Shown: positions 9,512-59,030, numbered from the stretch's first letter. The stretch is DNA of 64,000 nucleotides from Acidobacteriota bacterium (GCA_963666055.2 CAXWPH010000002.1:115427-179426); one strand, 5' to 3'. The notes: generated from the letters alone by a model not told the origin. Translations and numbers: made by a program.

Positions 9512-10564
9512 GTGAACCGTCGGTGGTTGCTCTACGGAGCCTACGGCTACACTGGCCGCCTGATCGCTCGTCTGGCGGCTGAGCGTGGCTTGTCGCCGCT
9601 GCTCGCTGGTAGGGATCCCCGGAAGCTGGAGGCGATGGCGAGCTCGCTGGGCTTGGAGCAGCGCGTATTCCGGCTCGGCAAGCCTGCCGCTATCGCGGAG
9701 GCCCTCGACGGGATGGACGCCGTGGTCAACGCCGCCGGACCGTTCTCGCGCACGTTCTCCAGGATGGTCGACGCCTGCTTGGCGCGCCGATGCCACTACC
9801 TCGACATCACCGGAGAGATCGAGGTTTTCGAGGCCGCCTGGGCACTCGACGAACGCGCCCGCGCAGCAGGCGTGATCCTGCTGCCGGGCGTGGGGTTCGA
9901 TGTCGTACCGACCGACTGTGCTGCGTCGCGCGCCGCGTCGCGGTTGCGCGATCCGACGCATCTTGACATCGCGTTCGTGGCCAGCGGCTCCCCTAGCGCC
10001 GGAACGTTGAAGACGATGCTCGAGGGCTTCGGGCAGCCGGGCAAGGTACGTCGCGACGGCCGCATCGTCGACATAGAGCTGGGGTCGGTGCGACGCCGTG
10101 TCCCGTTCGCTGACCGCGAGCGCGACGCCATGGCGATCCCCTGGGGCGATGTCAGCACCGCATGGCAATCCACCGGTGTTCCCAACGTGCGTGTGTTCCT
10201 GGCCTCTCGGAACAAGCTTCCGGGATGGTCGTCGATACTGCGGCCGTTGCTGCGCATGCCTCCAGCGCGGCGGTTGATGCAGTGGGTCGTGGGGCGGATG
10301 GTCGACGGACCGGGTGTCGAGCAGCTTGCTCGGGGATGGGCGCGTATCTGGTGTGAGGCCCGCAACGCGACCGGCGAGGTTGCCGAGGTCGAGCTGCTCA
10401 CGCCGAACGGGTACGCGCTTACCGCCGACAGCGCCGTGACCGCCGTCGAATCGCTGCTCGCGCCGACCTATGAGGGCCCGCCGTGCGGCGCGTTGACGCC
10501 GTCGTGTGCCTTCGGTGACGACTTCGTCAGCCGTCTGCGCGGGGTCGAGTGGGTAAAGGGCTAG
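9512..10564 (+). CDS. saccharopine dehydrogenase-like NAD(P)-binding oxidoreductase
   Basis: N-terminal LLYGAYGYTGRLIA Rossmann motif, then HYLDITGE and LPGVGFDVVPTD blocks. Confidence 0.8.
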   Translation: MNRRWLLYGAYGYTGRLIARLAAERGLSPLLAGRDPRKLEAMASSLGLEQRVFRLGKPAAIAEALDGMDAVVNAAGPFSRTFSRMVDACLARRCHYLDITGEIEVFEAAWALDERARAAGVILLPGVGFDVVPTDCAASRAASRLRDPTHLDIAFVASGSPSAGTLKTMLEGFGQPGKVRRDGRIVDIELGSVRRRVPFADRERDAMAIPWGDVSTAWQSTGVPNVRVFLASRNKLPGWSSILRPLLRMPPARRLMQWVVGRMVDGPGVEQLARGWARIWCEARNATGEVAEVELLTPNGYALTADSAVTAVESLLAPTYEGPPCGALTPSCAFGDDFVSRLRGVEWVKG

Positions 10565-10603
10565 CAGGCCGTGTCGATCAGGGGTAACGGTGGCGCGTTC
10601 TAA
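10561..10603. repeat. mini copy of the CTAG-bounded repeat between convergent genes
   Basis: CTAGCAGGCCGTG (identical to the unit terminus) ...GGTAACGGTGGCG...CTAA. The TAG at 10562-10564 and the CTA at 10600-10602 are the stop codons of the two flanking genes. Confidence 0.45.
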
Positions 10604-12339: not shown

Positions 12340-12634
12340 CGAACCTAGCAGGCCGTCCTATTCCTGTTTTCCCGGTACCCGAGGCGGCACGGGGAGTCGC
12401 CGGCAAGTTGCCGAGCATAGTAGCGAGCTGCGCAAAGGTACCGTCGAACCTGCTTGTCTTCCACAGGCAGCCGGCGGTCTCCCGACTCGGAAGGTGCCCG
12501 ATCTCGGCGTACGACCAGGACGTCTGTCGTCCTGTGTTCGCCAAGCGCTGACTTCGACTCCGGCTTCCGACGTAGCGATGTCCAGAGGAAGTTCTGAACC
12601 TGATTAGAAGACTAACTCAATTTAATGATAGTTT

Positions 12635-22197: not shown

Positions 22198-22264
22198 GGT
22201 TCGCGACCCGCTACACTTGCAAGACAGGCTGCTGGGGACACCTCGGATGGCGCAAGGAGGGGAC

Positions 22265-23563: not shown

Positions 23564-23616
23564 CTAGCAGGCGATGGTGGAAGTCGGCCCACTACACTTC
23601 CACCGCGGCCTTCTAA
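23564..23616. repeat. mini hairpin copy of the CTAG-bounded repeat
   Basis: CTAGCAGGCgaTGGTGGAAGT, 11 nt, ACTTCCACCgcGGCCttCTAA. GGTGGAAGT/ACTTCCACC are perfect complements. The termini match the family terminus CTAGCAGGCCGTGGTGAAAGT. Confidence 0.5.
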
Positions 23617-29754: not shown

Positions 29755-30567
29755 ATGAGCGTCGAATCGGTGCTGATTCCAGAGTTGGAGGGTGTCGACG
29801 GGCTAGTGTTCGACCTGGAGGGGACCCTGTACGTGGGGGACCGTCCGGTGGCCGGCGCCGCCGCATCGATTGCCACGCTGCGCGCCCGCGGCATGCCGCT
29901 GCGCTTCCTTACCAACACCACTACGTGCGCTCATGAGGCGCTGACCGTCAAGCTCGAGGGCATGGGATTCGAGGTGTCCGGCGACGAGGTGTTCTGTGCC
30001 CCCACCGTCGCCGGCCGTTTCCTGCGAGAGAACGACGCGAGCGCCTGGCTACTCGTGTCGCCGGCTGCGCTGCCGGACTTCGATGGTGTGCGCACCGACC
30101 CCGACAATCCCGACTACGTGGTGGTGGGCGATCTGGGCGATGACTGGACGTTCGAGCTGCTGAACCGCGCCTTCGTCCTGGTGCGTGAGCGTGGCGCACG
30201 CCTCATCGGATTGGTACGAAGCCGATACTGGCTGTCGGCAGATGGCGCGCGACTCGACGTGGGGCCGTTCGTCGTAGCGCTGGAGTACGCCACGGGGCGG
30301 TCAGCCACGATCTTCGGCAAGCCGGAGCGCGCCATCTTCGAGACCGTGCTTCGCACGATGGGGCTACCGGCAGGATCGGTCGCCATGGTCGGCGACGATC
30401 CGATCACCGATGCCGCCGCCGCCGCGGCGGTCGGGATGCGCACCGTGCTGGTACGTACCGGCAAGTATCGGGAAGGGGCCGAGGACCCGAGTGAGTCGGT
30501 CGGCGACGCCCCTGGTAACGCCGACGTGGTGGTCGACTCGGTGGCCGACCTGATCGTCTCCGGCTAG
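29755..30567 (+). CDS. HAD-superfamily subfamily IIA hydrolase
   Basis: VFDLEGTLYVG, LRFLTNTTT and MVGDDPITD motifs. Confidence 0.85.
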   Translation: MSVESVLIPELEGVDGLVFDLEGTLYVGDRPVAGAAASIATLRARGMPLRFLTNTTTCAHEALTVKLEGMGFEVSGDEVFCAPTVAGRFLRENDASAWLLVSPAALPDFDGVRTDPDNPDYVVVGDLGDDWTFELLNRAFVLVRERGARLIGLVRSRYWLSADGARLDVGPFVVALEYATGRSATIFGKPERAIFETVLRTMGLPAGSVAMVGDDPITDAAAAAAVGMRTVLVRTGKYREGAEDPSESVGDAPGNADVVVDSVADLIVSG

Positions 30568-30843
30568 CAGGCCGTGGTGAAAGTGTGGTGGGTCTGGTTA
30601 CGGCGAGTTGGGGCCAGATGCAAGGCGGCCTGACACAGGCGATGCCCTAGCCATCGTCGAGAAAGGCCAACACCGCAGATGGCCCCAAATCGCCGTAACC
30701 CTTCGGGCGACACGGGGTTGCGCGCGTATGCTGCGTCGTTCCTCGTCAACGATGGGGTAACCATCGCCTACCTCCTCTCTCTTTGCCTCCACTTCGCAAG
30801 ACCCTGTCGCCAGACCCACCACACTTTCACCACGGCCTGCTAG
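30564..30843. repeat. 280-bp composite palindromic element (two inverted 87-bp-type units, perfect 34-bp terminal inverted repeats)
   Basis: 30564-30597 is the exact reverse complement of 30810-30843 (checked base by base). Unit 1 is 30564-30650. Unit 2 is inverted, at 30647-30843, with ~105 bp of extra sequence. Confidence 0.75.
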
Positions 30844-30845
30844 CG

Positions 30846-31523
30846 TCAGCTCGTCTGTGGCGCCTTCAGAGCTGCCTTGCGGTTCCGGTAAAGCTGCTGG
30901 TCCACGACCGCAGCCATCGCCTCGGCGTCCAGCCCGTACTCGAGGAATTCATCGATCACGCCAACAAACCTGGCTGGATCCTCGAGCGCGTCCTTGTAGT
31001 GCACCTCGATCATCTGGAAGTTGGGGCGATCGCGCACCAGGAACTGGACCTGCACCAGATGTCGCAGGAAGAACTGTTTCGTTTGCAGATCGTCGAGCGG
31101 ATTGTCTTCGGCGCGCCGCTCGAGCATCTTGTTCTGCGATGCCACGACCTCGTCGAGGTCGCGACGCATGAAGATCACCTTGTAGAAGTGCTCCGCCGGC
31201 AAGTCTTTGAGCAAGTGCGAGATGACCTTCAAGACCTTGCCGCGCGCCTCGCCGACCCACGACTTATCGGTCTCGCTTTCGAGGTCCTTGACGCGCTCGT
31301 GCTCGTAGTAGCCCTTGGGGTTGTCGACATCGGCGGCGCGCTCGTTGTCCGTGAGGATGGGCAGTCCGGCGGCATCGAGCATGCGCATCATCATCGAGGT
31401 GCCGGAACGCGGTAGCCCGGACACGATGATTACCTCGTCGCCGTACTTGCGACGGCGGAGAGCTCTCTTGAGCGAAGTCAGCAAGGGAATCTCTCGGCAC
31501 GCAGGAGTGGATGATCGGGTCAT
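30846..31523 (-). CDS. sulfotransferase-family protein
   Basis: IIVSGLPRSGTSMMMRML is a PAPS 5'-phosphosulfate-binding loop. FMRRDLDEVVASQ resembles the 3'-phosphate motif. Start set at ATG 31523; uncertain. Confidence 0.75.
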   Translation of the reverse strand: MTRSSTPACREIPLLTSLKRALRRRKYGDEVIIVSGLPRSGTSMMMRMLDAAGLPILTDNERAADVDNPKGYYEHERVKDLESETDKSWVGEARGKVLKVISHLLKDLPAEHFYKVIFMRRDLDEVVASQNKMLERRAEDNPLDDLQTKQFFLRHLVQVQFLVRDRPNFQMIEVHYKDALEDPARFVGVIDEFLEYGLDAEAMAAVVDQQLYRNRKAALKAPQTS

Positions 31524-31623
31524 TGTAGCAAGGCGACCACTCTGGCCCTTGCGGCGCCGGCGCCCATCTTTCGCGGTGGCGGGGCACGTCAGGGACCGCA
31601 TCGTTACGTGTACACTGCGGCCT

Positions 31624-32808: not shown

Positions 32809-33585
32809 GTGGGCCCGTCGCCGACCGGGACGCTGCTGGTGGCGTTGTGCTGCAGCGCCAGCGCCACACAGGCGACGCTGTCCATCGAGTACATCGCTCA
32901 CGCCAGCTTCTTGATCGAGTCGCCGGGTGGCGCCCGCATCCTGGTGGATCCGTTCGCCAGCCGTGTGTGGATCGGCTACGACTTTCCCGAGGGCCTGCAT
33001 CCCGACGCGGTCGTGATCACCCATCCGCACTATGATCACGATGCCGGGCGGTTCCGTGGCTCGCCGTTCCCGTGGCCTGAGGCGCGCATCTTCGACGCCC
33101 CCGGCGAGTTCATGGTCGACGACGTTCGCGTGATCGGGCTGCGCGGAAAGCACGCCGATCCGTACGGCGAGGAGTTCGGCCAGCGCAACACGATCTGGGT
33201 GATCGAGACGGCCGGTCTCCGAATCGCACACATCGGCGACAACGGCCCGCTGACACGCGACAACGTTCGCGATCTCGGCACCATCGACATTCTCATGTTG
33301 CCGATCGATGCCCAGTACCACATCCTGGCGCGCGAGGAGGCCGCCGCGCTCGTTACGGCGGTGCAACCACGGCACCTGGTACCGATGCACTATCGGCTGC
33401 CGGAGCTGGAGCCGGACCCCGACTCGCCCGCTGACCTCGGCACCATCGACCCCTGGCTGCAGGGCCGCGCCGGAGTTGTGCGGCTCGGTTCCCACCGGTG
33501 GCAGGTGGGGCTCGACACGCTGCTCCCGGCCGGCAGCACGGTCGTCTTCGAGCCTTCGCCGCGGGTGGCGCGGCCAGCGCGCTAG
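32809..33585 (+). CDS. MBL-fold metallo-hydrolase, secreted
   Basis: Signal peptide. ITHPHYDHD metal motif, then IAHIGDNG. Confidence 0.85.
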   Translation: MGPSPTGTLLVALCCSASATQATLSIEYIAHASFLIESPGGARILVDPFASRVWIGYDFPEGLHPDAVVITHPHYDHDAGRFRGSPFPWPEARIFDAPGEFMVDDVRVIGLRGKHADPYGEEFGQRNTIWVIETAGLRIAHIGDNGPLTRDNVRDLGTIDILMLPIDAQYHILAREEAAALVTAVQPRHLVPMHYRLPELEPDPDSPADLGTIDPWLQGRAGVVRLGSHRWQVGLDTLLPAGSTVVFEPSPRVARPAR

Positions 33586-33668
33586 GGCATCGCCAGCGTC
33601 AGGCCGCCTTGCATCTAACCCCAGCTCGCCGAAACCAGGCCCGTCACACTTCCGCCACGGCCTGCTAG
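33582..33668. repeat. 87-bp CTAG-bounded palindromic unit (inverted orientation relative to 30564-30650)
   Basis: 76 of 87 positions identical to the reverse complement of 30564-30650 (hand alignment). Both terminal CTAGs contain the stop codons of the convergent flanking genes. Confidence 0.75.
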
Positions 33669-34396
33669 GGGTCGGAGTCGAACGGTGCTCCCAGTGCTGC
33701 CGCGAACGCGCGGATGCGGGCCGCGTTCGCTCCCAGATCACTGCGGCCGACGCGCGACGTCGAGCGTACGTCAACTACCGACCCCGACGAGACCGGGCGG
33801 ACGCGCACGACGAAATCCTCTACGAAGGCAAAAACACTCGATACCGCATAGGCCTCGATGTGGCCGTCGGCACGGTTACTGAAGGCAATGGTAAGGCCGA
33901 TCTCCTCCGCTGCCCGAATGGCGGCCGCGTGAGCCGCGCCGGGGTCGAGGTCGAGCTCGATGGGTCGCAAGTCGGGATAAGCGCGTCGTTGCTCGACGAT
34001 GACCTCGGCGCCGCCCTGCGGATAGGTCAAGTCGCGGCTCGCGTTATCGTCGTGGTCGAGGGCGACACGGTATGCGGGCGCATCGTCGGGTGACGTGGTG
34101 ATGTCGTGAATCGGCGGCGCGTTCATCTGCAGGCGGGCGGCCACCAGCGCAATGATCAGCACTGTGCCGCCGAAGAGTCCGCGTCGGCCTGCCGCCGGCG
34201 ACCGCGAATCCTTTCGTGCCCGGCGCCACGCCAGCAGGCCGAGGGCGATGCTGAGCAGGCCCCCCAGGGCCCAAGTCAGCACGAAGACTCCGAACCCGCT
34301 TAGCGGCCTGGCGGCGCCGACATGGATTGCTGCTACTGCGCCCCCCATGATGCCGACGGTAACGATGGGGGAGTATGCTGCACTCCGCATCAACAT
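33665..34396 (-). CDS. DUF1499-family membrane protein
   Basis: Three N-terminal TM helices, then PPIHDITT....SRVGRSDLGANAARIRAF, typical of DUF1499. Confidence 0.7.
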   Translation of the reverse strand: MLMRSAAYSPIVTVGIMGGAVAAIHVGAARPLSGFGVFVLTWALGGLLSIALGLLAWRRARKDSRSPAAGRRGLFGGTVLIIALVAARLQMNAPPIHDITTSPDDAPAYRVALDHDDNASRDLTYPQGGAEVIVEQRRAYPDLRPIELDLDPGAAHAAAIRAAEEIGLTIAFSNRADGHIEAYAVSSVFAFVEDFVVRVRPVSSGSVVDVRSTSRVGRSDLGANAARIRAFAAALGAPFDSDP

Positions 34397-34601: not shown

Positions 34602-35528
34602 GTGATGGCCGAAGATCGCAAGGAGCTCGTGGCGATCGTCGCGGCGAGGGAGGATGAGCTCGCGCCGCTGCGCGAGCGTGTGCTCGTTTCCGAGAAGATC
34701 AAAGATGGGCCCCGCTACTACCTACGGGGCACGCTGCGCGGAGTGCAGGTCGTGCTCGCGGTTACCGGCGACGGCAAGCGCAACGCCGATCTCGGAATCC
34801 GACGGTTGATCCAGATGTGCGCGCCGACGCGCGTCCTGGCTGTCGGGTTGGGAGGCGCGCTCTCGACAGACCTTGCGGTTGGCGACCTGGTGGTCTCCAG
34901 CGAAGTGATGGAGGGAGAACACACACTCGCCTGTCCGGATCTGCAGTGGCTGGAGGAAGCGTCGATTCATCTGGATTATGACCTCGGGCGGCTGGTTACC
35001 GTCGACGAGATCTTGGCGACACCATCGAGCAAGTCGGAGTGGTACGGGCGGACATGGCGCGACCAGCCCGCTGCTGCCGACATGGAGTCCGCCTGCTTCG
35101 CCAGAGTGGCCGTAGCCTACAACCTGCCATACCTGATCGCGCGGGCTATCAGCGACGCTGCCGACGAGGTGCTACCAGAGTTCCTCGAGGACTGCCGCGC
35201 GCAGGACGGCAGCATCGACAAGCGTCAGGTGTTTTGGAAGACGCTCTGGCGACCACGCTCGTGGGGCAACATCGTACGCTTGCGCTCGCGCATGCGGCGG
35301 TGCGCTAGCACGCTGGCCGATTTCGCCGAAGGGATTGGTTGCTGCGTTAGCCTAGCTGCGTTCCCCTCACTGGGCGCGTTGCCAGCGTCCGCCATTGACA
35401 TGCCCCGAGGTGTCAAGGACACTCGGAACCCTATGCCCTCAGTGCGGTGCGCTGGTCTTGAACGCGGCGCGCCTGCCTCTTGTGCGTCGCCGTTGCCGGC
35501 GCCGATGCCGCGTTGCGAGTACGCATGA
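34602..35528 (+). CDS. PNP/UDP-1 family phosphorylase/nucleosidase, HpnG-like
   Basis: VVLAVTGDGKRNA, VGLGGAL, DMESA and ARAISDAADE motifs, plus a C-terminal extension (DGSID...LWRPRSW..VRLRSRM) like hopanoid-associated phosphorylases. ATGA coupling to the next gene. Confidence 0.65.
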   Translation: MMAEDRKELVAIVAAREDELAPLRERVLVSEKIKDGPRYYLRGTLRGVQVVLAVTGDGKRNADLGIRRLIQMCAPTRVLAVGLGGALSTDLAVGDLVVSSEVMEGEHTLACPDLQWLEEASIHLDYDLGRLVTVDEILATPSSKSEWYGRTWRDQPAAADMESACFARVAVAYNLPYLIARAISDAADEVLPEFLEDCRAQDGSIDKRQVFWKTLWRPRSWGNIVRLRSRMRRCASTLADFAEGIGCCVSLAAFPSLGALPASAIDMPRGVKDTRNPMPSVRCAGLERGAPASCASPLPAPMPRCEYA

Positions 35529-36571
35529 GCAGTACCGACTCACCGGCCGCCAAGCCACCGGCCGAGCGCGACCGCAAAGCCGAGCACATCCAGCTGGCGC
35601 TCGAAGAGCGTATGCAGCACGGCAGTCGCGGCTTCGACGCTTGGCGGCTCGAGCATTGCGCCCTTCCCGAGCTCGACCTGGCCGAGGTCGACCTCAGCAC
35701 CGAATTCCTCGGCAAGCAGCTGGCGGCGCCGCTCCTTATCTCCTGCATGACCGGTGGCACCGCTGACGCGGCCCGAATCAACCGCAACTTGGCCATCGGC
35801 GCCGAGCGGGCCGGTGTTGCGGTTGGCGTGGGGTCGCAGCGCAAGGCGCTGGAGGATCCTACGCTCCAAGCCACCTTCCAGGTTCGTGAGTACGCTCCCA
35901 CGGTCCCCCTGCTGGCCAATCTAGGGGCGGTGCAATTGAACTGCGGGTACGGCGTCGCCGAGTGCCGGGCGGCCGTTCATATGATCGATGCCGACGCTCT
36001 CGTGTTGCACCTGAACCCTCTGCAGGAGGCGATTCAGCCCGAGGGCGATGTCAACTTCGCCAACCTGTTGCCGAAGATCGGCGCGATTGTTGGTCAACTC
36101 GAGGTACCGGTCATCGTCAAGGAGATCGGCATGGGCATATCGCTGTCGGTGGCCGAGCGCCTCGCTGAAGCCGGCGTCCGTATCATCGACACTGCGGGGC
36201 ATGGGGGCACCAACTGGGCGCGCATCGAAGCGCAGCGTGCCGACGACCTCGAGCTCGGTGCGACGTTCGCCGAGTGGGGAATTCCAACGCCCGACAGCAT
36301 CCGCGCCGTCGCCAGCGTGCCGGGAGTCACCGTCATTGGCAGCGGCGGGGTCCGTACTGGAATCGACGTGGCCAAGGCGGTAGCGCTCGGCGCTGACATG
36401 GTCGGCCTGGCGTATCCGTTCCTCAAAGCGGCGCTGGAGTCAGCCGCTGCCGTCGTGGCGCGGATCGACCGTACCTTGACGGAGCTCAGGGTGTCGATGT
36501 TCTGCGCCGGCATCCGTACAGTGGCCGATCTGCGTGCCGCAAGTCTGATCGAGCGAGCGACTCGGCGATGA
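35525..36571 (+). CDS. fni: type 2 (FMN-dependent) isopentenyl-diphosphate delta-isomerase
   Basis: KAEHIQLAL, LISCMTGG, VGSQR and VKEIGMGIS motifs. ATG at 35525 overlaps the upstream stop. Confidence 0.9.
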   Translation: MSSTDSPAAKPPAERDRKAEHIQLALEERMQHGSRGFDAWRLEHCALPELDLAEVDLSTEFLGKQLAAPLLISCMTGGTADAARINRNLAIGAERAGVAVGVGSQRKALEDPTLQATFQVREYAPTVPLLANLGAVQLNCGYGVAECRAAVHMIDADALVLHLNPLQEAIQPEGDVNFANLLPKIGAIVGQLEVPVIVKEIGMGISLSVAERLAEAGVRIIDTAGHGGTNWARIEAQRADDLELGATFAEWGIPTPDSIRAVASVPGVTVIGSGGVRTGIDVAKAVALGADMVGLAYPFLKAALESAAAVVARIDRTLTELRVSMFCAGIRTVADLRAASLIERATRR

Positions 36572-37821
36572 CTGACGCTGCCGAGCCGGTCGACCAGGGC
36601 ACCCTCGTAGACGAGATCGTAGCCGGCACCCGGCGCTTCCATCACCTGCCGTCCGAGCTCGGCGCCGCTGAGGCTGCGGCCATTCGACGACAGGCGCTCG
36701 AGCGCCTGGCCGGAGTAAATCTGACACATACCGGCAAGTACTCATTCGACGCCGCGCGCGCCGCCGACAGCCATTGCGAGAATCTGATCGGTGTGACGCA
36801 GGTGCCGGTCGGTGTAGCAGGGCCACTACTCGTGCGGGGTGATTATATCGACGGTGAGGTCTACGTCCCTCTGGCTACGACGGAGGGAGCGCTCGTCGCC
36901 AGCATTAACCGGGGCTGTGCGGCCATCCGCGCGGCCGGCGGGGCCGCCGTGTACGTGGAGGACGTCGGCATGACCCGGGCGCCGGTGTTTCGCTCCAGCG
37001 GGCTGGCGCAGACACGTGAGTTCCTCCGCTGGGTTACCGACAACGAGGATGAGATCCGCTCCGTGGCAGAGGGCACGAGCCGCTTCCTGCAGCTGGTGGA
37101 TATCCGCCCCTATGCTTTCGGTACCACGATCTTCCTGCGCTTCAGGTTTCGCTCGGGCGATGCCATGGGAATGAACATGGCAACCATCGCCTGCGATCAG
37201 CTAGTGCGCGAGTTGATCGAGCCGGCGACCGGGGTACCCTGCGTTGCTCTTTCCGGAAACTACTGTACCGACAAGAAACCCGCGGCGATCAACTTCCAGG
37301 AAGGCCGCGGCAAGCGCATACACGCGCAGGTCAGACTCGACGCCGATGTGCTGGCGCGCCTGAAGACGAGCGCGGCCGAGCTGCTCGAGGTGCAGTATCG
37401 CAAGAACCTGCTGGGCTCGATTGCTGCCGGTTCGATAGGTTTCAATGCCCACGTCGCCAACGTTCTCGCGGCGGTGTTTCTCGCTACTGGACAGGATCCG
37501 GCGCATGTAGTGGAAGGGTCGATGGGAATCACCTCTATCGAGCCTGGCGACGAGGGTGGCGTGGTGGCATCGATGTACCTGCCTGCTGTTCCGCTGGCGG
37601 CGATCGGCGGTGGTACTGCGCTCGACACACAACGCGAGGCGCTTGCTGTGCTCGGCGTTGCTGCAGAGCCGGACCGGCCTGGTGTCGCGGTGCTGCGATT
37701 AGCCGAGATCCTCGGCGCCGCCGTCCTCGCAGGCGAGCTGTCGTTGCTGGCCGCTCTTACCTCTCAGGACCTCGCCGGCGCCCACAAGCGGCTGGGGCGG
37801 CGCGCCCGGCCCGGCAGCTAG
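36568..37821 (+). CDS. class I HMG-CoA reductase (soluble, archaeal-like)
   Basis: ENLIGVTQVPVGVAGPL, PLATTEGALVASINRG, GDAMGMNM and IGGGTAL motifs. 417 aa with no membrane domain. Confidence 0.9.
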   Translation: MTDAAEPVDQGTLVDEIVAGTRRFHHLPSELGAAEAAAIRRQALERLAGVNLTHTGKYSFDAARAADSHCENLIGVTQVPVGVAGPLLVRGDYIDGEVYVPLATTEGALVASINRGCAAIRAAGGAAVYVEDVGMTRAPVFRSSGLAQTREFLRWVTDNEDEIRSVAEGTSRFLQLVDIRPYAFGTTIFLRFRFRSGDAMGMNMATIACDQLVRELIEPATGVPCVALSGNYCTDKKPAAINFQEGRGKRIHAQVRLDADVLARLKTSAAELLEVQYRKNLLGSIAAGSIGFNAHVANVLAAVFLATGQDPAHVVEGSMGITSIEPGDEGGVVASMYLPAVPLAAIGGGTALDTQREALAVLGVAAEPDRPGVAVLRLAEILGAAVLAGELSLLAALTSQDLAGAHKRLGRRARPGS

Positions 37822-37832
37822 ACGGTCGCCTG

Positions 37833-38951
37833 ATGGAAGCGGCGCGGTTGCCCGAAGGGCGCTTGCTGACGCGCGTCTCGACGCCTGGAAAGCTCATCCT
37901 CATGGGCGAACATGCGGTCGTCTACGGTCGGCCGGCGCTGGTGGCGGCCACTAGCCTGCGCCTACGGGTCTACCTATACCGCGCACAGCGGGCCGGCGTG
38001 GAAGTGGAGTTGCCGGAGCTCCAGTTCCAAAACCACGTTTCTTGGCAAGAGATCTGGCGCTATGCGAGCCGAATGCGGCAGCGGTGGGACCGCTACGACA
38101 CGAGCCTGACGCCGGAGGTGTTCGCTCGCCTTCAGGACGACCGCCCCGACCGGTTGGTGCTGCTGGCACTGGGCGAGGCAATCACGGCGCTCGGTGAGGA
38201 TCCCGGCGCGAAGGACCATCCGCTGAGCGCGCTGCGGCTTCGGGTGGACTCGGCGGTCCCAATGGAGGTCGGCTTTGGGAGCTCCGCCGCCACCGCCGTG
38301 GCAGTGGTAACAGCGGTTTGTGCGCTCTCTGGTAAGGCGGAGAGGTGGTCACTGATTGGGCCGATCGTGGGCGAGGTGGAGCGCCGGCAGCATGGCGCGC
38401 CGTCTGGGGTGGATGTCGCGGCCGTGTTTCACGGCGGTGTGTTGCGCGCTCGCCGCGGCGGCGAAGAGCTATTGATCGAGCCGCTGGCGGCGCGCCCTGA
38501 CACCCTGCAGCGGCTGCGGGTGTTCGACACGGGTCGCTCGGCCGAGCCGACCGGCGCGGTGGTCGCGGCAGTACGGGCGCAACACGACCGCCACCCAGCC
38601 AGCTTCGAGGCGTCGCTGGACGCTGCCGAATCCGCAACCCGGGCCTTCCAGGACGCGGTTACCGCATCAGCTGACCAGATCGACCTGGTGCCACCGATCC
38701 GCGATGCTCAGCGCTACCTGGAGTCTCTCGGTGTGGTGCCCGAGCCAGTATGCGACGCCGTCCGCGCTGTCGAAGCTCTGGGCGGCGCCGCCAAGATCTC
38801 CGGTTCGGGTTCGCTCGCGGGGCCAGGGGCCGGCTCTTTGTTGGTATTGTTGCCTGCTGGGATCGAGAATCTCCCAGAGCCGCTGGCGAGGCTTCCGGAG
38901 CACGAAGTGTCGCTGGGCGCGGAGGGTGTGCGCGTAGAGGTGGCGTCATGA
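37833..38951 (+). CDS. mvk: mevalonate kinase (GHMP kinase)
   Basis: PGKLILMGEHAVVYG and EVGFGSSAATAVAVV (GHMP motif II). Confidence 0.85.
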   Translation: MEAARLPEGRLLTRVSTPGKLILMGEHAVVYGRPALVAATSLRLRVYLYRAQRAGVEVELPELQFQNHVSWQEIWRYASRMRQRWDRYDTSLTPEVFARLQDDRPDRLVLLALGEAITALGEDPGAKDHPLSALRLRVDSAVPMEVGFGSSAATAVAVVTAVCALSGKAERWSLIGPIVGEVERRQHGAPSGVDVAAVFHGGVLRARRGGEELLIEPLAARPDTLQRLRVFDTGRSAEPTGAVVAAVRAQHDRHPASFEASLDAAESATRAFQDAVTASADQIDLVPPIRDAQRYLESLGVVPEPVCDAVRAVEALGGAAKISGSGSLAGPGAGSLLVLLPAGIENLPEPLARLPEHEVSLGAEGVRVEVAS

Positions 38952-39973
38952 GCCGCAGCGCCACCGTCGAAGCACCCTCCAATATCGCGTTTGTGAAGTA
39001 CTGGGGTGCCGCTGACCTGGAGAAGGCCATCCCGCTCAACGCTTCGATCTCGATGTCGTTGCGGGCGTGCGTCACACGGACGAGCGTCGAGACGCTCGCG
39101 GCCGGCGCCGACGACCAGATCTGGATGCGCGTCGACGGCCAATGGCGTCGCGCCGAAGGAGCGTTCCGGCATCGCGCAGCGGCACATCTGGAAGGTCTGC
39201 GGCGTTGGGCCAAAGTCGACGTGGGCTTTCGGGTCGCTACCGAGAACAGCTTTCCTGCCGCCGCCGGTATCGCCTCGTCGGCTTCCGGCTTCGCCGCCCT
39301 CACCCTGGCGGTGCTGGCGGCGCTCGAGCGGGAGCCGGCAGGTGATGAGCTATCGAATTTGGCGCGGTTGTCTGGCTCAGGCTCCGCGTCGCGGTCGGTT
39401 TTCGGCGGCTACGTGCAGTGGCCGCACGGCGACGAGGCAGACCCGTGGCGCGCCGCACCGCTGGCGACGGCCTCGCATTGGGACCTGCGCGACGTAATCG
39501 CGATTGTGCAAACCGGTCCCAAGGCGGTGTCGTCTCTCGAGGGGCACGCCCGGGCCCCCACCAGCCCCCATTTCGCACGCCGGCAGGAGCTCATCCCGTC
39601 GCGTCTTCAACGGGTGCGCGACGCCATCGAGGCGCGCGACCTGGACCAACTCGGTCCGGTCGTCGAGGAAGACGCGATTGAGCTCCACCTGGTAGCGATG
39701 TCCTCGCAGCCTCCGATCTTCTACTGGCAGCCGGCGACGCTTCGCGTGCTGCACCACGTTCGCACCCTGCGGAGCGGTGGAACGTCGGCGTGGGCAACAA
39801 TGGACGCCGGAGCTAACGTGCATGTGATTTGCTCCGCCGACGACGAGGCAGACGTCGCCGCCGGGTTGGAAGCGCTCGATGGTGTCCAGAGTGTGATCCG
39901 CGACGGCGTGGGCTCGGGACCACGGACCCTGCCGGTATCGCTGCTCGATGCTCTGGATCGAGCGCAGCCATGA
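38948..39973 (+). CDS. mevalonate (di)phosphate decarboxylase family protein; substrate (MVA-5-PP versus MVA-5-P) unresolved
   Basis: APSNIAFVKYWG, AAAGIASSASGFAAL and GSGSASRS motifs. ATGA overlaps at both ends. Confidence 0.85.
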   Translation: MSRSATVEAPSNIAFVKYWGAADLEKAIPLNASISMSLRACVTRTSVETLAAGADDQIWMRVDGQWRRAEGAFRHRAAAHLEGLRRWAKVDVGFRVATENSFPAAAGIASSASGFAALTLAVLAALEREPAGDELSNLARLSGSGSASRSVFGGYVQWPHGDEADPWRAAPLATASHWDLRDVIAIVQTGPKAVSSLEGHARAPTSPHFARRQELIPSRLQRVRDAIEARDLDQLGPVVEEDAIELHLVAMSSQPPIFYWQPATLRVLHHVRTLRSGGTSAWATMDAGANVHVICSADDEADVAAGLEALDGVQSVIRDGVGSGPRTLPVSLLDALDRAQP

Positions 39974-40770
39974 ACGACCTGGTGGTAGTCAAGCTCGGTG
40001 GCAGCTTGATCACGAACAAGCGCCGCCATCGAACGGTGAGGCGGGCTGAGCTTTCGCGACTCGCCGGCGAGATCGCGGCGCTCACCCGCCGCTTTGGATT
40101 CCCGATGCTGTTAGGGCACGGTAGTGGGTCCTTTGGGCACGTGGCGGCAGCGGAGTCAGGCGTTCACGACGGGATGGCCGGGCGTCGTGCGCGGGTCGGT
40201 GTGTCGCAGACGCAGGCTGCAGCTGCAGAGCTGCACGCGATCGTGATGAGCGCTCTGCGCGATGCCGGTGTGGCTGCCTACTCGGTGGCGCCGTCGAGCG
40301 CTATTGTCGCCAGAGGCCCCGGTCTTCGGCCGAGCGTGCACCTGGAGCCGGTGCTCCGAGCGCTCGACAGTGGGCTGCTACCCGTTACGTATGGCGACAT
40401 CGTCATGGACCGGCAACGTGGCTGCTCGATTTGCTCGACCGAAATGGCGCTGCTGGCGTTCGTTCGCTCGCTACGCTCGTCAAATCGGCGTGTCTCCGAC
40501 GCCATCTGGCTCGGAGACACCGACGGCATTCTGGATGCGGCTGGGGTGAGCGTTACTCGCGTCCGCTTGCGAGACGCCAGGCGCGTCCGCCGCCTGGTGA
40601 GTGGCGCGGCCGCGACCGACGTGACCGGCGGCATGCGCCATCGGTTCGAGGCGGCGTTGGCGCTGGCCCGCATTGGCGTACGGTCCTATCTGCTCGATGG
40701 CCGTCGACCGGGCATCCTGCGACGTGCGCTGCGGGGCACCGCGGTGCCGGGGACAATCGTCGAGCGTTGA
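39970..40770 (+). CDS. isopentenyl phosphate kinase (amino-acid-kinase fold)
   Basis: VVKLGGSLITNK and LLGHGSGSFGH (IPK catalytic His motif). 266 aa. Confidence 0.75.
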   Translation: MNDLVVVKLGGSLITNKRRHRTVRRAELSRLAGEIAALTRRFGFPMLLGHGSGSFGHVAAAESGVHDGMAGRRARVGVSQTQAAAAELHAIVMSALRDAGVAAYSVAPSSAIVARGPGLRPSVHLEPVLRALDSGLLPVTYGDIVMDRQRGCSICSTEMALLAFVRSLRSSNRRVSDAIWLGDTDGILDAAGVSVTRVRLRDARRVRRLVSGAAATDVTGGMRHRFEAALALARIGVRSYLLDGRRPGILRRALRGTAVPGTIVER

Positions 40771-40817
40771 CCGGCGGCGGCTTCGTTGCCTGGGCCGCGC
40801 CCCCGCCAGGGTGGATA

Positions 40818-41771
40818 ATGGACCTCGGCCAGCCAAAGCCAGGCGCACGCATGGACCGCATCGAAGACCTTCTCGAGAAGACCAGCCGCACGTTCGCGCT
40901 ATCGATCCCGTTGCTGCCGGAGCCGACCCGCCGCGAGCTTGGCATCGCCTACCTGCTGTTCCGCATTGCGGACACCTTCGAGGACGCGTCGCAATGGGAC
41001 CGACAGCAGCGCATCGATGCCCTCGAAGAGTTCATGAGCCTGGTTCGAGATCCGGACGAGCAGCGCGCCGCCGAGCTGGGACGTAGGTGGGCCGCCTCCG
41101 TACCGATTGACCATCCCGGCTATCTCGAGCTACTCGGCGAATCCGCAACCGTGATCCGGGAATACCAGCGTCTGCGACCTGACGCACGGGAGATCATCCG
41201 TGAGCACACGTTGCGGACCGTTGCTGGCATGTCCGGATTCGTCAAGCGCTCTGTCGATGGCGTGCTCAAGCTCGAGTCTCTCGCTGACTTGCGCGAGTAC
41301 TGTTACGTGGTTGCCGGTATCGTCGGTGAGCTCAGCACTGATCTGTTCCTCCTCGAGCGCCCCCAGCTGGCGTCGTCGATCGAGTTCTTGCGACAGCGCG
41401 CTGCGCGGTTTGGCGAGGCGCTGCAACTGGTCAACATCCTCAAGGATGCCGCCACCGACCGGCGTGAGGGTCGGCGTTACCTGCCTGCAGCGTTGAAGCG
41501 CAAGGAGATCTTCCGGTTGGCCCGCGAAGACCTCCGAGTAGCAGCCCATTACACCAACGCACTGCAGGCGGCGGGTGCGCCGCGCGGCATCGTCGCGTTC
41601 TGCGCGCTACCTACACGGCTGGCCGTCGTCGCCCTCGACATCGTCGAGCGGTGCGGGCCCGGCGCGAAGATCTCACGCCAAGACGTTGCCGACATCGTCG
41701 AGGCCCTGAACCTAGATCTCGACGTCGGTGCTCCCGCGGTGGCGATTCCAGCAACCGCGAAACCGACGTGA
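40818..41771 (+). CDS. squalene synthase (squalene/phytoene synthase family, SQS type)
   Basis: SRTFALSIPLLP, YLLFRIADTFED (first Asp-rich motif) and NILKDAATDRREGRRYLP (second motif). The start could be ATG 40851. Confidence 0.8.
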   Translation: MDLGQPKPGARMDRIEDLLEKTSRTFALSIPLLPEPTRRELGIAYLLFRIADTFEDASQWDRQQRIDALEEFMSLVRDPDEQRAAELGRRWAASVPIDHPGYLELLGESATVIREYQRLRPDAREIIREHTLRTVAGMSGFVKRSVDGVLKLESLADLREYCYVVAGIVGELSTDLFLLERPQLASSIEFLRQRAARFGEALQLVNILKDAATDRREGRRYLPAALKRKEIFRLAREDLRVAAHYTNALQAAGAPRGIVAFCALPTRLAVVALDIVERCGPGAKISRQDVADIVEALNLDLDVGAPAVAIPATAKPT

Positions 41772-57338: not shown

Positions 57339-58094
57339 ATGAACGGCGACATCAGAGTGGTCACGTTCGACGCTCGCGGCACGCTCTTGAAGGTGCGATT
57401 CTCGGTCGGCGAGACGTACAGCGCTGTGGCCAGGCGGCACGGCGCTGACCTGTCGACCACTGCGATCGAGGCGGCGTTCTTTGCGGTGTTTCCCAGCATG
57501 CCGCCGCTGGCCTTCCCACCCATGCACGATGAGCAGCTGCGCGAGCGTGAGCATCAGTGGTGGCGGACTCTGGTGGAGCGGGTCGTCGAATCCGCCGATC
57601 AGCAGGTCGACGACTTCGACGAGTTCTTCGCCGAGCTGTATTCGCTATACCGTGGCGCCGAGGGTTGGAAGCCATATCGTGAGGCGGCATCAGTGCTGTG
57701 CTTGCTGCGCTCGGCCGGCTACAAGCTGGGCGTCGTGTCCAACTTCGACTCGCGCATCGAGGATGTGTTGTTGGCGCTGAACATGAGCATCTGGTTCGAC
57801 TCGGTGGTGTTCTCCTCGCGCGCCGGTGTCGCCAAGCCGGGTGTCGGGATCTTCCGGCGGGCTCTGGCCGAGCTCGATGTAAAGGCGGAGCACGCGTTGC
57901 ATGTCGGCGACAGCCTCCGTAAGGACTGGGAAGGCGCCCGCAACGTCGGAATGAAGGCCATCCTGCTCGATCGCACCGCTCGTTACGCCGCCAACACGCC
58001 CTCGGATTGCGATGTGGTCCCCAGCCTCGAGGCAGTGCTCGAACGCCTCGGCGTGGCTGGCTTTTCCGAGTTGGCGCGCGCCCACGCCAGCTAG
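57339..58094 (+). CDS. HAD-superfamily hydrolase (subfamily IA)
   Basis: VVTFDARGTLL motif I, VVSNFD motif II and HVGDSLRKD motif IV. Confidence 0.85.
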   Translation: MNGDIRVVTFDARGTLLKVRFSVGETYSAVARRHGADLSTTAIEAAFFAVFPSMPPLAFPPMHDEQLREREHQWWRTLVERVVESADQQVDDFDEFFAELYSLYRGAEGWKPYREAASVLCLLRSAGYKLGVVSNFDSRIEDVLLALNMSIWFDSVVFSSRAGVAKPGVGIFRRALAELDVKAEHALHVGDSLRKDWEGARNVGMKAILLDRTARYAANTPSDCDVVPSLEAVLERLGVAGFSELARAHAS

Positions 58095-58107
58095 CAGGCC
58101 GTGGTGG
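58091..58107. repeat. terminal remnant of the CTAG-bounded repeat
   Basis: CTAGCAGGCCGTGGTGG: the first 16 nt are identical to the family terminus. Its TAG (58092-58094) is the HAD stop codon. The convergent gene stops at 58110. Confidence 0.4.
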
Positions 58108-58109
58108 CT

Positions 58110-59030
58110 TCAGTCCCCGATGTCGTCTGACACGAGGGCGATCTGGTCACCCATCGGACTTACTGCCAGCCGCGTGATCGAGCTTATCCCCGCCGTCGAT
58201 AGATCCGCCGCCAGCGTCCAGGTGTCGTCCCGGAACGGGTCGCGCACGAACACCCGCGAGTCGGTAGCCATCAGCATGCGGCCGTCCGGAGTCCACGCCA
58301 GGTCCTGGCTCCCCGGCAAGGCGTCGACGAGCTCGAACACCGCTCCGTTGATTGGGTTCACCAGTCGGATCGCCCAGTGGTCGCCATCACGCTGCAGGAA
58401 GCTGAAGAAGTCAGGGTCGTGGCGCGCCTGCAGCGATCGGCCGATGTCCTGCGCCACCGTCGTGGTGGTATCCGTGCGGAGGTCGGCCAGCTGCAACGTC
58501 GGCGGCTCGCCGAGGATGAACAGAATCAACGAACCGTACCGGTTCCAGGAGTGGTAGCCGACCGGGGCAACGTCGGGGAGCAGCAGTCGCGGCGAGGTGC
58601 CGTCGCGACGGAATGTCCACAGTCGTTGAGTCCCGTCCGACTCGACTCGTACAACCGACATGTCTTCGTTGGCCGGCCATACGACGCTGGGCGAGTATTC
58701 CGACTCGGGGGTGGCGGTGATTTGTGTGTGCTCTCCCGACGACAGATCCACCCGGAAGATGTCGGTCTGCTCGCCGCGTTGCGACGTGTACAACAGGCCG
58801 TCGCCCTCGGGCTCGAAGTGGGGTTGGTTGTCGTAGCCCGGGCGGTTGGTGAGGTTGCGCGGAGCACCCAAGGTTGGCGGGCTCGACGCAAGATCCAGAT
58901 CGACGAGAAAGATATCGGTTCCCGGCGCCGCCTGCCTGGAACCCGGGACGGCTGCTGACAGCGTCGCGACACCCGCCAGCAGAATTATCAGCCTCGAGGC
59001 AACGGTCTGCAAAGCTTTCCTCCCGCGCAT
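58110..59030 (-). CDS. TolB-like/WD40-like beta-propeller protein, secreted
   Basis: Start set at ATG 59030 (MRGRKALQTVASRLIILLAGVATLSAAV). NRPGYDNQPHFEPEGDGLLYTS and ITATPESEYSPS blades. Confidence 0.7.
   Translation of the reverse strand: MRGRKALQTVASRLIILLAGVATLSAAVPGSRQAAPGTDIFLVDLDLASSPPTLGAPRNLTNRPGYDNQPHFEPEGDGLLYTSQRGEQTDIFRVDLSSGEHTQITATPESEYSPSVVWPANEDMSVVRVESDGTQRLWTFRRDGTSPRLLLPDVAPVGYHSWNRYGSLILFILGEPPTLQLADLRTDTTTTVAQDIGRSLQARHDPDFFSFLQRDGDHWAIRLVNPINGAVFELVDALPGSQDLAWTPDGRMLMATDSRVFVRDPFRDDTWTLAADLSTAGISSITRLAVSPMGDQIALVSDDIGD

What the first reader, a model, noticed from the sequence alone, without database searches (positions are those of the whole stretch)
33582..33668. 87-bp repeat unit whose two CTAG ends provide the stop codons of both convergent flanking genes
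33582-33668 aligns to the reverse complement of 30564-30650 with 76/87 identities (hand alignment). The element exactly fills the gap between the MBL hydrolase gene (stop TAG 33583-33585) and the DUF1499 gene on the other strand (stop CTA 33665-33667). CTAG seems rare here and concentrated at gene ends. An element that targets and duplicates CTAG would therefore land on C-TAG stop codons and regenerate them, which would explain the precise placement (inference). Two substitutions between the copies turn G-C pairs of the predicted inner stem into G-T pairs. These are tolerated only at RNA level on one strand, which is a weak hint of an RNA-level 3'-end hairpin.
Basis: partly seen in the sequence, partly recalled or inferred. 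Interest (0 to 1): 0.65.

Follow-up and report, generated by a model that had tools for sequence, protein, structure and literature searches.

The report
Truncated copy of CTAG-targeting MITE
The 87-bp repeat is a broken copy of a small non-coding mobile element, common in a group of uncultured Acidobacteriota, that inserts at the rare sequence CTAG; many CTAGs are stop codons, so it lands between genes and leaves their stops intact, which is an ordinary kind of element in a family not described before.

Summary
33582-33668 is an inverted copy (76/87) of 30564-30650, and its two CTAG ends overlap the stop codons of an MBL-fold gene and a DUF1499 gene. It is not a unit of its own. It is one arm of a ~280-bp element (full copy at 30564-30843) with 30-bp terminal inverted repeats and CTAG at both ends. 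At least 138 terminal modules occur in 91 loci from 13 or more Acidobacteriota MAGs. Orthologous loci have exactly one CTAG, the HAD gene's stop, where the window has CTAG-element-CTAG. This is a clean empty site. The MBL stop CTAG is also ancestral. Stop codons are hit about as often as their share of non-coding CTAGs predicts, so the stop overlap follows from target choice. Host genomes carry a multi-copy IS5-family IS, CTAG-flanked in 8 of 8 copies, whose tip resembles the element's. It is the likely mobiliser, but this is not proven. The proposed RNA hairpin in the 87-nt unit is not supported (z +0.8/-1.3, no T-tract). The full element does have a strongly covarying Y-shaped fold. A second CTAG-flanked family with different termini shares this fold, and that is unexplained.

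The parts
33582..33668 (+). The finding: a truncated, one-armed copy of the MITE family. Layout: CTAG (33582-33585, MBL stop TAG 33583-33585) + 3' half of arm II (33586-33634) + 30-nt terminal repeat (33635-33664) + CTAG (33665-33668, DUF1499 stop CTA 33665-33667).
   Evidence: 76/87 to the left arm of the full copy; position within the consensus fold; coordinates
30564..30843 (-). Full-length copy (280 bp from CTAG to CTAG), between the convergent HAD (+) and sulfotransferase (-) genes. Layout: CTAG 30564-30567 (HAD stop TAG 30565-30567); terminal repeat 30568-30597; arm II 30596-30700 with the internal CTAG 30647-30650 at its apex; arm I 30706-30809; terminal repeat 30810-30839; CTAG 30840-30843.
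   Evidence: I2; 92-97% identical copies elsewhere; fold and covariation; empty sites
23564..23616 (.). Mini palindromic copy made of two terminal repeats back to back, flanked by CTAG and CTAA, in a divergent intergenic region.
   Evidence: (D1); folds with z -3.8
58091..58107 (+). Remnant: CTAG (stop of gene 57339-58094) plus the first 13 nt of the terminal repeat (CAGGCCGTGGTGG). It lies in the 15-nt gap to the convergent gene 58110-59030.
10561..10573 (+). Possible remnant: CTAG (stop of gene 9512-10564) plus CAGGCCGTG. The convergent gene's stop lies in a CTAA at 10600-10603.
   Evidence: weak
12345..12356 (+). Possible remnant: CTAGCAGGCCGT, 6 nt upstream of the start of gene 10600-12339(-).
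   Evidence: weak
22202..22235 (+). Degenerate terminal repeat (71% to the reference) in a tail-to-head intergenic region.
   Evidence: (D1)
32809..33585 (+). MBL-fold hydrolase gene. Its stop lies in the left CTAG, which is ancestral: it is present without any element in L097, L098 and L100.
33665..34396 (-). DUF1499 gene. Its stop lies in the right CTAG. The stop position is conserved in orthologues (TAA within TTAG in L097).
29755..30567 (+). HAD-family hydrolase gene. Its stop is the target CTAG of the full-length copy.
30846..31601 (-). Sulfotransferase gene. Its stop (TCA) lies 2 nt beyond the right CTAG of the full-length copy. The spacing to the CTAG is the same in the empty sites.

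Best explanation
The 87-bp sequence is a decayed copy of a non-autonomous DNA transposon (MITE) family that is abundant in one clade of uncultured Acidobacteriota.

The intact element is about 280 bp. It consists of CTAG, a 30-bp terminal inverted repeat (CAGGCCGTGGTGRAAGTGTGRYGGGYCTGG), two internal palindromic arms, the inverted terminal repeat, and CTAG.

It inserts into CTAG (more loosely NTAG). It duplicates either the central TA or the whole tetranucleotide, so a CTAG sits at each junction (shown by empty versus filled sites).

CTAG is depleted inside genes, and roughly a third of the remaining CTAGs are C-TAG stop codons. Insertions therefore often land on a stop codon, and the duplication leaves a stop for the gene on each side. 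Convergent genes that abut or share one CTAG end up separated by the element, each keeping its stop.

The window's 87-bp copy keeps only one terminal repeat and half of arm II, ending at a CTAG that forms the apex of arm II in the main subfamily. The most likely origin is a deletion between the target CTAG at the MBL stop and this internal CTAG (inferred). The alternative is insertion of an already truncated or composite variant.

The most likely mobiliser is a DDE transposase of the IS5 family. A 1305-bp IS5-family IS in the same genomes has the same CTAG flanks and a related terminal motif (inferred, not demonstrated).

In its present form the 87-bp copy is probably inert. It has no fold of its own, no terminator features and no coding capacity.
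For: Repeat family:
- A genome-collection scan with a pattern lacking CTAG found 91+ loci, all in Acidobacteriota or uncultured MAGs.
- 23 full copies are 83-97% identical to the window's.
- Lengths cluster at 275-289 bp, with many truncated forms anchored on the terminal repeat.

Target:
- The outer 4-mer is CTAG in 94 of 138 terminal modules and NTAG in 109 of 138. There is no preference at the next base out.
- 17 of 30 complete pairs are CTAG/CTAG.

Empty sites:
- L094/95/96 read '...cgcggCTAGcgtcagc' and L097 reads '...gccggCTAGcgag'. The window reads '...tccggCTAG[272 nt]CTAGcgtcagc'.
- The nearest relative, L092/93, has a junction 'GGCCTG-CTAG' with loss of the last 11 nt of HAD. This fits deletion of a resident copy (inference).
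- L098 has a solo terminal repeat at the same CTAG.
- The MBL stop 'gcgCTAG' is present without any element in L097, L098/99 and L100/101.

No special stop targeting:
- 25 of 94 CTAG-flanked ends share a stop, against 62 stop: 114 intergenic among background non-coding CTAGs.
- C precedes TAG stops (47%) as often as it precedes TGA stops (45%).
- Full copies sit in 9 convergent, 11 tandem and 1 divergent contexts. L060 and L005 also have both ends on stop codons.

Non-coding:
- The 66-aa ORF is broken or frameshifted in 9 or more of 23 copies.
- It has only 7 tiny homologues among 5.8 billion proteins.

Candidate mobiliser:
- The IS at L027 5070-6382 has DUF772 + DDE_Tnp_1 domains and matches NCBIfam transpos_IS5_4.
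- More than 30 near-identical intact transposases occur in one host contig, and relatives occur in two other host assemblies.
- 8 of 8 IS copies are flanked by CTAG (one TTAG/CTAG).
- The tip CAGGC--TGCTGAAA aligns with the MITE's CAGGCCGTGGTGAAA.
- IS5 is known to duplicate YTAR, most often CTAG (PMC5493358).
Against: - No autonomous element with the MITE's own 30-bp terminal repeat was found. None lies next to 138 modules in 91 loci. None turned up via the ORF, in plasmids or phages, or in a metagenome scan that returned only chance hits.
- The IS5-family IS shares only the first ~15 nt, with a 2-nt indel, and nothing further in. Cross-mobilisation is therefore conjecture.
- The duplication length is unresolved. 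The outer 4-mers give NTAG variants 15 against CTAN variants 4. IS copy L105 (TTAG/CTAG) and MITE L082 (ATAG/CTAG) also favour a TA duplication with element ends G...C. L003 (CTAA/CTAA) favours 4 bp.
- For the 87-bp copy itself, no orthologue shows both flanks abutting a single CTAG. The intergenic spacer differs in every lineage, so its insertion and truncation history is inferred.
- The strong covariation of the internal arms, which a second family with different termini also shows, is not explained by a plain 'junk MITE' model.
Confidence: 0.8

Rival explanations
1. REP/REPIN-like element moved by a RAYT- or TIRYT-type HUH tyrosine transposase. The 30-nt module with its CTAG 'head' would play the role of a GTAG-tagged REP. 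The 280-bp form would be an inverted doublet (REPIN), and solo modules would be decayed remnants. Insertion would occur 3' of CTAG without a true duplication.
For: - Solo modules, doublets and clusters occur, as with REPs.
- The head tetranucleotide is adjacent to every module.
- Stems covary, as in REPINs.
- GTAG REP termini are reported to supply TAG stops to flanking ORFs, and Acidobacteria encode a distinct group of TIR-flanked RAYT-like transposases (PMC3733652).
- The empty/filled pattern (one CTAG against two) is also what an IS200/IS605-type insertion next to its target would give, if the element's right end terminates in CTAG.
Against: - The 30-nt module is not a real palindrome (6-bp stem with one G-T, 17-nt loop). 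This differs from REPs (sequence).
- The head is CTAG, not GTAG or CGTC.
- No RAYT-sized ORF lies between inverted modules in 91 loci.
- A DDE IS with the same flanks and a related tip is present in the hosts.
Confidence: 0.1
2. Same MITE, but mobilised by an IS630/Tc1-mariner-type transposase. IS630 inserts at the TA within CTAG and duplicates TA.
For: - The outermost base of the flank varies (TTAG 8, ATAG 5, GTAG 2), while the base next to the repeat is almost fixed (CTAA 2, CTAC 1, CTAT 1). This is the geometry expected for a TA duplication with element ends G...C.
- The preference of IS630 for TA in CTAG is documented (Tenzen & Ohtsubo 1991, cited in PMC2170065).
Against: - No IS630-family gene was seen.
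- The only CTAG-flanked IS with a related tip in the host genomes belongs to the IS5 family, and it shows the same TTAG/CTAG asymmetry (L105).
- The asymmetry can also arise from selection on the TAG when it serves as a stop codon (inference).
Confidence: 0.07
3. One reading: the 87-nt unit acts at RNA level as a 3'-end hairpin (stabiliser or terminator) shared by the two convergent transcripts.
For: - Its position is exactly between two convergent stops.
- The minus-strand fold of 33582-33668 reaches -38 kcal/mol.
- Convergent contexts are over-represented among full copies (9 of 21).
Against: - Folding is not better than shuffles on either strand or for either copy (z +0.81, -1.32, -0.22, 0.01).
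- There is no T-tract terminator and no Rfam match.
- In the covarying family fold, the unit's partners are the missing half of arm II and the missing terminal repeat.
- There is no G-U versus A-C asymmetry (28 vs 29) and no orientation bias relative to the upstream gene (17:12).
- Half of all module ends face gene starts.
Confidence: 0.03

Closest known systems
IS5-family insertion sequences and MITEs derived from or mobilised by them
   Same: - Target is CTAG (YTAR), with CTAG on both sides after insertion.
- Short terminal inverted repeats.
- A 1305-bp IS5-family IS (DUF772 + DDE_Tnp_1, NCBIfam transpos_IS5_4) with CTAG flanks in 8 of 8 copies and a related tip (CAGGC..TG.TGAAA) lives in the same genomes. 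The target preference is documented in PMC5493358.
   Different: - The MITE's repeat is 30 bp against 16 bp. It matches only over the tip, with a 2-nt indel.
- The interior is unrelated to the IS.
- The flank statistics lean towards a 2-bp TA duplication rather than the canonical 4 bp of IS5.
- Mobilisation has not been tested.
IS630 (Tc1/mariner superfamily) and its MITEs
   Same: Insertion at the TA within 5'-CTAG-3' with TA duplication (cited in PMC2170065). This is the geometry the flank statistics favour.
   Different: No IS630-type transposase was found. The associated IS found here belongs to the IS5 family.
GTAG-tagged REPs / REPINs with RAYT transposases
   Same: - Short modules carry a conserved terminal tetranucleotide.
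- Singlets, inverted doublets and clusters all occur.
- Termini often provide the TAG stop of flanking ORFs (PMC3733652).
- Stems covary.
   Different: - The head is CTAG.
- The module is not a hairpin.
- The doublet spacer is about 210 nt and is itself structured.
- No RAYT was found.
Correia (NEMIS) elements of Neisseria and ERIC/IRU elements of enterobacteria
   Same: These are small, TIR-bounded, highly structured intergenic repeats, often co-transcribed at gene ends, that occur in full and internally deleted forms (from general knowledge, not tested here).
   Different: The sequences and hosts are unrelated. The CTAG target and the two-arm Y-shaped core are specific to this family.

Membership tests
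MITE (non-autonomous class II transposon) | Terminal inverted repeats | tested here: met
   30-bp TIRs. Helix 1 of the consensus fold has 30 pairs and 97.7% of cells paired across 23 copies.
MITE (non-autonomous class II transposon) | Target-site duplication, shown by empty versus filled sites | tested here: met
   One CTAG in L094/95/96 and L097, against CTAG-element-CTAG in the window with identical outer flanks. 17 of 30 complete copies are CTAG/CTAG.
MITE (non-autonomous class II transposon) | Small, multi-copy, no transposase gene | tested here: met
The ORF is not conserved and has no long homologue.
MITE (non-autonomous class II transposon) | Autonomous partner with matching ends | tested here: inconclusive
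   Only a related tip on an IS5-family IS was found. No IS with the full 30-bp repeat was found.
IS5-family-associated element | YTAR/CTAG target | tested here: met
   CTAG 94, TTAG 8, CTAA 2 of 138. The IS copies themselves are CTAG-flanked in 8 of 8.
IS5-family-associated element | 4-bp duplication | tested here: inconclusive
   CTAG is palindromic, so 2 bp and 4 bp cannot be told apart. L003 (CTAA/CTAA) favours 4 bp. L082 (ATAG/CTAG), L105 (TTAG/CTAG) and the 15:4 asymmetry favour 2 bp.
IS5-family-associated element | Ends recognised and cut by an IS5-family transposase | not testable with these tools
   Needs a biochemical or genetic assay.
IS630/Tc1-mariner-derived MITE | IS630-family transposase with matching ends in the host | not tested
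   Whole host genomes could not be scanned for it. None was seen in about 0.75 Mb of loci.
REP / REPIN | 20-40-nt imperfect palindrome with a GTAG or CGTC head | tested here: not met
   The module has only a 6-bp terminal complementarity around a 17-nt loop, and the head is CTAG.
REP / REPIN | Cognate RAYT gene flanked by the repeats | tested here: inconclusive
   None lies between inverted modules 400-6000 bp apart in 91 loci. Whole genomes were not scanned.
Intrinsic terminator / 3'-end RNA hairpin | Stable GC-rich hairpin followed by a T-tract | tested here: not met
   There are no terminator-like sites in either element. The 87-nt fold is not better than shuffles.
Any curated RNA family (Rfam 15) | Covariance-model match | tested here: not met
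   0 hits at gathering thresholds over the window. In E-value mode over 30500-30900, only chance hits with E of about 1 or more.

The most novel reading that the evidence does not exclude
The about 210-nt two-arm core of the full-length element is itself a selected, functional structure rather than passive filler between transposon ends. It could be a folded single-stranded DNA intermediate needed for mobilisation, or a structured RNA.

Support:
- It keeps a Y-shaped fold through 33 compensated pairs across subfamilies.
- Its stems are 2-3 times less variable than its loops among recent copies.
- The same collinear core, again with compensatory changes, is carried by a second CTAG-flanked family with completely different 30-nt termini.

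That would mean a conserved 'payload' that has changed transposon ends. This is the reverse of the usual MITE pattern, in which the ends are shared and the interiors are unrelated.
Probability: 0.25. Interest if true: 0.6.

Novelty: new member of a known kind. Interest (0 to 1): 0.35.

Why it matters
Practical value:
- It explains why repeats sit exactly on stop codons in these genomes.
- It warns annotators that gene ends next to CTAG may carry element-derived sequence. L092/93 show a HAD gene that lost its stop when a copy was deleted.
- It gives a high-copy, polymorphic marker for a poorly known, uncultured Acidobacteriota clade.

Conceptual value: it is a clean natural example of how target specificity for a tetranucleotide that is counter-selected inside genes steers a transposon to gene boundaries without disrupting them.

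The one part that goes beyond the routine is the conserved, covarying core shared by two families with different termini. If that core is functional, it would be a new kind of structured mobile module.

Tried and rejected
- Autonomous partner next to the repeats. All-against-all comparison of ORFs of 150 aa or more in 91 loci found only paralogous ABC-transporter ATPases.
- Inverted module pairs 0.4-6 kb apart. They enclose ordinary genes: peroxiredoxin etc. in L046 and a triple RidA gene in L084.
- The 66-aa ORF as a possible transposase N-terminus. It has only 7 short homologues.
- Plasmid and phage collections. Only chance hits, or none.
- Metagenome scan with the 12-nt tip plus a degenerate DUF772 motif. 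The pattern was too loose.
- Rfam. Nothing.
- tRNA or tmRNA as an integration target. None in the window.
- A 6-bp NCTAGN duplication (IS481-like). Rejected because the base outside the tetranucleotide shows no pattern.
- Excess of C-TAG stops created by the element. Not seen (47% against 45%).
- First look-up of the window's own MBL protein. Not on record.
- A first, GC3-based gene caller missed DUF1499 and the sulfotransferase. It was replaced by a codon-usage model.

Full report
**1. The observation.** The sequence is as described. 33582-33668 reads CTAG-GGCATCGCC...CCACGGCCTG-CTAG and matches the reverse complement of 30564-30650 at 76 of 87 positions. The repeat finder reports the pair as 88 nt, 88% complementary. 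A 19-mer common to both copies is expected 0.02 times in shuffled sequence. Pfam confirms the neighbours. 32809-33585(+) is an MBL-fold protein, with its stop TAG inside the left CTAG. 33665-34396(-) is DUF1499, with its stop CTA inside the right CTAG. CTAG occurs 59 times in the 65.5% G+C window, against 91-109 expected from Markov models. With a self-trained codon-usage gene caller (61 genes, 93% coding), 36 CTAGs lie in coding sequence, 13 are stop codons and 10 lie in about 4.5 kb of intergenic DNA.

**2. The 87 bp is a fragment of a larger element.** The copy at 30564-30650 is the left arm of a 280-bp unit, 30564-30843. Its ends are 30-48-nt inverted repeats, and both abut CTAG (I2). This unit sits between a HAD hydrolase gene (stop in the left CTAG) and a convergent sulfotransferase gene (stop 2 nt beyond the right CTAG). 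The window also holds:
- a 53-bp version made of two terminal repeats back to back (23564-23616);
- short CTAG-anchored remnants (58091, 10561, 12345);
- a degenerate repeat (22202).

Nine of the 23 CTAGs outside coding sequence touch this family.

**3. The family elsewhere.** A scan of one genome per species used a pattern taken from the terminal repeat that deliberately left out the CTAG. All were in Acidobacteriota or unclassified MAGs, from 13 or more assemblies. Twenty-three full-length copies are 83-97% identical to the window's. Lengths cluster at 275-289 bp. There is a long tail of shorter forms:
- 33-bp solo units between two CTAGs;
- about 55-bp repeat-to-repeat minis;
- one-sided truncations with many different inner endpoints;
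- a 365-bp variant in which an extra 83-nt module plus CTAG precedes a full copy at two unrelated loci (L056, L069).

Of 138 terminal modules, 94 abut CTAG and 109 abut NTAG. The next base out shows no preference.

**4. Mobility and target.** I recovered orthologues of the window's region through the MBL protein.
- In L094/95/96 (87% MBL identity) the HAD and sulfotransferase genes are separated by '...cgcggCTAGcgtcagc...'. L097 (86%) has '...gccggCTAGcgag...'. The window has '...tccggCTAG[272 nt]CTAGcgtcagc...'. One CTAG in the empty site and two in the filled one is the signature of insertion with target duplication.
- The nearest relative (L092/93, 92%) lacks the element but reads '...ggccgGCCTG-CTAGcgtcagc'. 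It is missing the last 11 nt of HAD, and the gene there runs on to 341 aa. The junction is identical to the element's last six bases plus CTAG, so I read it as a deletion scar (inference).
- L098 (85%) has a solo terminal repeat at the same CTAG.
- At the site of the finding, three lineages (L097, L098/99, L100/101) have the MBL stop in 'gcgCTAG' followed by 20-46 nt of unrelated spacer and no element. The left CTAG is therefore an ancestral target, not something the element brought.
- The DUF1499 stop is at the same codon in the window, L093, L094 (CTAG) and L097 (TAA within TTAG).
- The gap is occupied differently in each lineage: the 87-bp piece (window); a 25-nt mini element plus an IS110-family IS (L092/93); a degenerate repeat in the opposite orientation (L094); nothing (L097, L098, L100).

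This site is therefore a recurrent target. The exact history of the 87-bp copy cannot be reconstructed.

**5. Why stop codons.** Among CTAGs at least 320 nt from any module, 248 are coding, 114 intergenic and 62 are stop codons. So 35% of non-coding CTAGs are stops. Of CTAG-flanked module ends, 25 of 94 (27%) share a stop. C precedes TAG stops (47%) no more often than it precedes TGA stops (45%). The overlap with stops is therefore what target availability predicts. Full copies lie in 9 convergent, 11 tandem and 1 divergent contexts, with no orientation bias (17:12). Two more copies (L060, L005) have both ends on the stops of convergent genes. The likely pre-insertion state in such cases is two genes abutting or sharing one CTAG. 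The HAD/sulfotransferase empty site shows this arrangement.

**6. Which enzyme.** No transposase lies beside the modules. A search for long inverted repeats in the loci found one IS at L027 5070-6382:
- It is 1305 bp with 16-bp ends, CAGGCTGCTGAAAAAC, and CTAG on both sides.
- It has a 358-codon frame with one TGA.
- It carries DUF772 and DDE_Tnp_1 domains, and its best NCBIfam model is 'IS5 family transposase'.
- Intact copies are very numerous in that MAG: more than 30 variants at 99% identity in one 4.36-Mb contig.
- Relatives occur in two other host assemblies, including the one that holds the window's nearest relative.
- All eight copies examined, at eight different sites, are CTAG-flanked. 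One is TTAG on the left and CTAG on the right, and there it sits on a glycosyltransferase stop codon.
- The IS tip aligns with the MITE tip (CAGGC--TGCTGAAA against CAGGCCGTGGTGAAA), but nothing further in is similar.

IS5 is known to duplicate YTAR, most often CTAG (PMC5493358). IS630 is known to insert at the TA of CTAG (cited in PMC2170065). The flank statistics lean towards a TA duplication with element ends G...C: 15 NTAG variants against 4 CTAN, plus the pairs L082 ATAG/CTAG and L105 TTAG/CTAG. L003 (CTAA/CTAA) points to 4 bp. Selection on TAG stops could also produce the asymmetry. I leave the duplication length open, and I regard an IS5-family transposase as the most likely but unproven mobiliser.

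**7. Structure.**
- The 87-nt unit does not fold better than shuffled sequence on either strand (z +0.81, -1.32; other copy -0.22, 0.01). It has no T-tract and matches no Rfam family.
- The full element folds to -171.6 kcal/mol (z -10.8).
- On 23 copies, RNAalifold gives a Y shape: the terminal repeats pair, and two arms of about 100 nt each form hairpins.
- 97.0% of cells are paired (90.6% in shuffles). 33 pairs carry compensated double changes (17 in shuffles, 3-9 when the partner is slid). 0 of 500 shuffles reach the observed values.
- The internal CTAG is the apex of arm II and exists only in the main subfamily. The 87-bp unit is therefore the 3' half of arm II plus one terminal repeat, and its pairing partners are absent.
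- Sporadic G-U (28) and A-C (29) mismatches are balanced. Only four fixed G-U pairs favour one strand. So nothing points specifically to RNA.
- Within the main subfamily, stems vary 2-3 times less than unpaired columns.
- The 66-aa ORF with a GAGGAGG motif is not conserved.

**8. An unexpected relative.** A second repeat family has termini TGGCCTGTAACAGATGATCGTTGCGTATCG and is also CTAG-flanked. It carries the same two-arm core, collinear and with further compensatory changes. One family-1 copy is nested in a family-2 copy (L018), and a family-1 fragment is nested in another (L053). The cause could be two related ISs with diverged ends and homologous subterminal regions, or a selected core that has changed ends. 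This is open, and it is the only aspect that goes beyond the routine.

**9. Verdict.**
- The 'CTAG-targeting mobile element that preserves stop codons' reading is supported by an empty site and by family-wide statistics.
- The 'unit' and 'RNA hairpin' parts are not supported.
- The element is a new family of a well-known kind (MITE), probably tied to IS5-family transposases.
- Interest is modest. The conserved structured core deserves a follow-up.

Noticed in passing
L027 5070-6382; also L103 1410-2717, L104 1414-2746, L105-L109 511-1823: A 1305-bp IS5-family IS (DUF772 + DDE_Tnp_1) with 16-bp ends CAGGCTGCKGAAAAAC. It is CTAG-flanked at 8 of 8 sites. It is present in dozens of near-identical intact copies in one Acidobacteriota MAG contig (4.36 Mb) and in two other MITE-host assemblies. 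The L027 copy has a single in-frame TGA.
   Followed up: yes
L092 12217-12486; L053 7699-7996; L018 6747-7303: A second CTAG-flanked MITE family with unrelated 30-nt termini (TGGCCTGTAACAGATGATCGTTGCGTATCG). It has the same two-arm core as the family studied, collinear and with compensatory changes. In L018 a family-1 element is nested inside a family-2 copy.
   Followed up: partly
L092 10908-11954 and L093 8163-9209 (orthologues of window ~33586-33664): In the window's nearest relative, an IS110-family IS (DEDD_Tnp_IS110 + Transposase_20) sits directly after the CTAG of a 25-nt mini element between the MBL and DUF1499 genes. Its other side adjoins a family-2 MITE. It may target these repeats. 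L092 and L093 share the left flank but diverge to the right of the IS.
   Followed up: no
L092 ~8020-8040 / L093 ~5275-5295 (orthologue of window 30550-30850): The HAD gene there has lost its last 11 nt and its stop codon. It is called as 341 aa instead of 270 and runs antisense into the sulfotransferase gene. The junction GGCCTG-CTAG looks like the scar of a deleted element copy.
   Followed up: partly
L084 1282-2652: A gene with three RidA/L-PSP domains (428 aa) is bracketed by inverted 27-31-nt terminal repeats of the family, each with CTAG. This could be two decayed insertions or a cargo-carrying composite.
   Followed up: partly
window 35480-41771: A mevalonate-pathway-like cluster: FMN_dh, HMG-CoA reductase, GHMP kinase, MVD-like, AA_kinase (isopentenyl-phosphate-kinase-like) and SQS_PSY. 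It was inferred from synteny with the Pfam-labelled orthologous loci L094/L097.
   Followed up: no
L006, L026, L037, L064, L067, L068 (5986), L083 (coordinates): A recurrent 33-bp solo form, CTAG + CAGGCCGTGGTGRAAGTGTGRTGGGYCTG + CTAG. Its own ends (CAGGCC / GGYCTG) are inverted. It may be the minimal unit from which the 30-nt terminal repeat was built.
   Followed up: no
window 30564-30764 (- strand): A 66-codon ORF with a strong GAGGAGG motif 6 nt (5 in most other copies) upstream of its ATG lies inside the full-length element and ends at the element's terminal CTAG. It is intact in most recent copies but frameshifted or truncated in 9 or more of 23. Gene callers have annotated it as a protein in a few MAGs (7 database entries).
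   Followed up: yes
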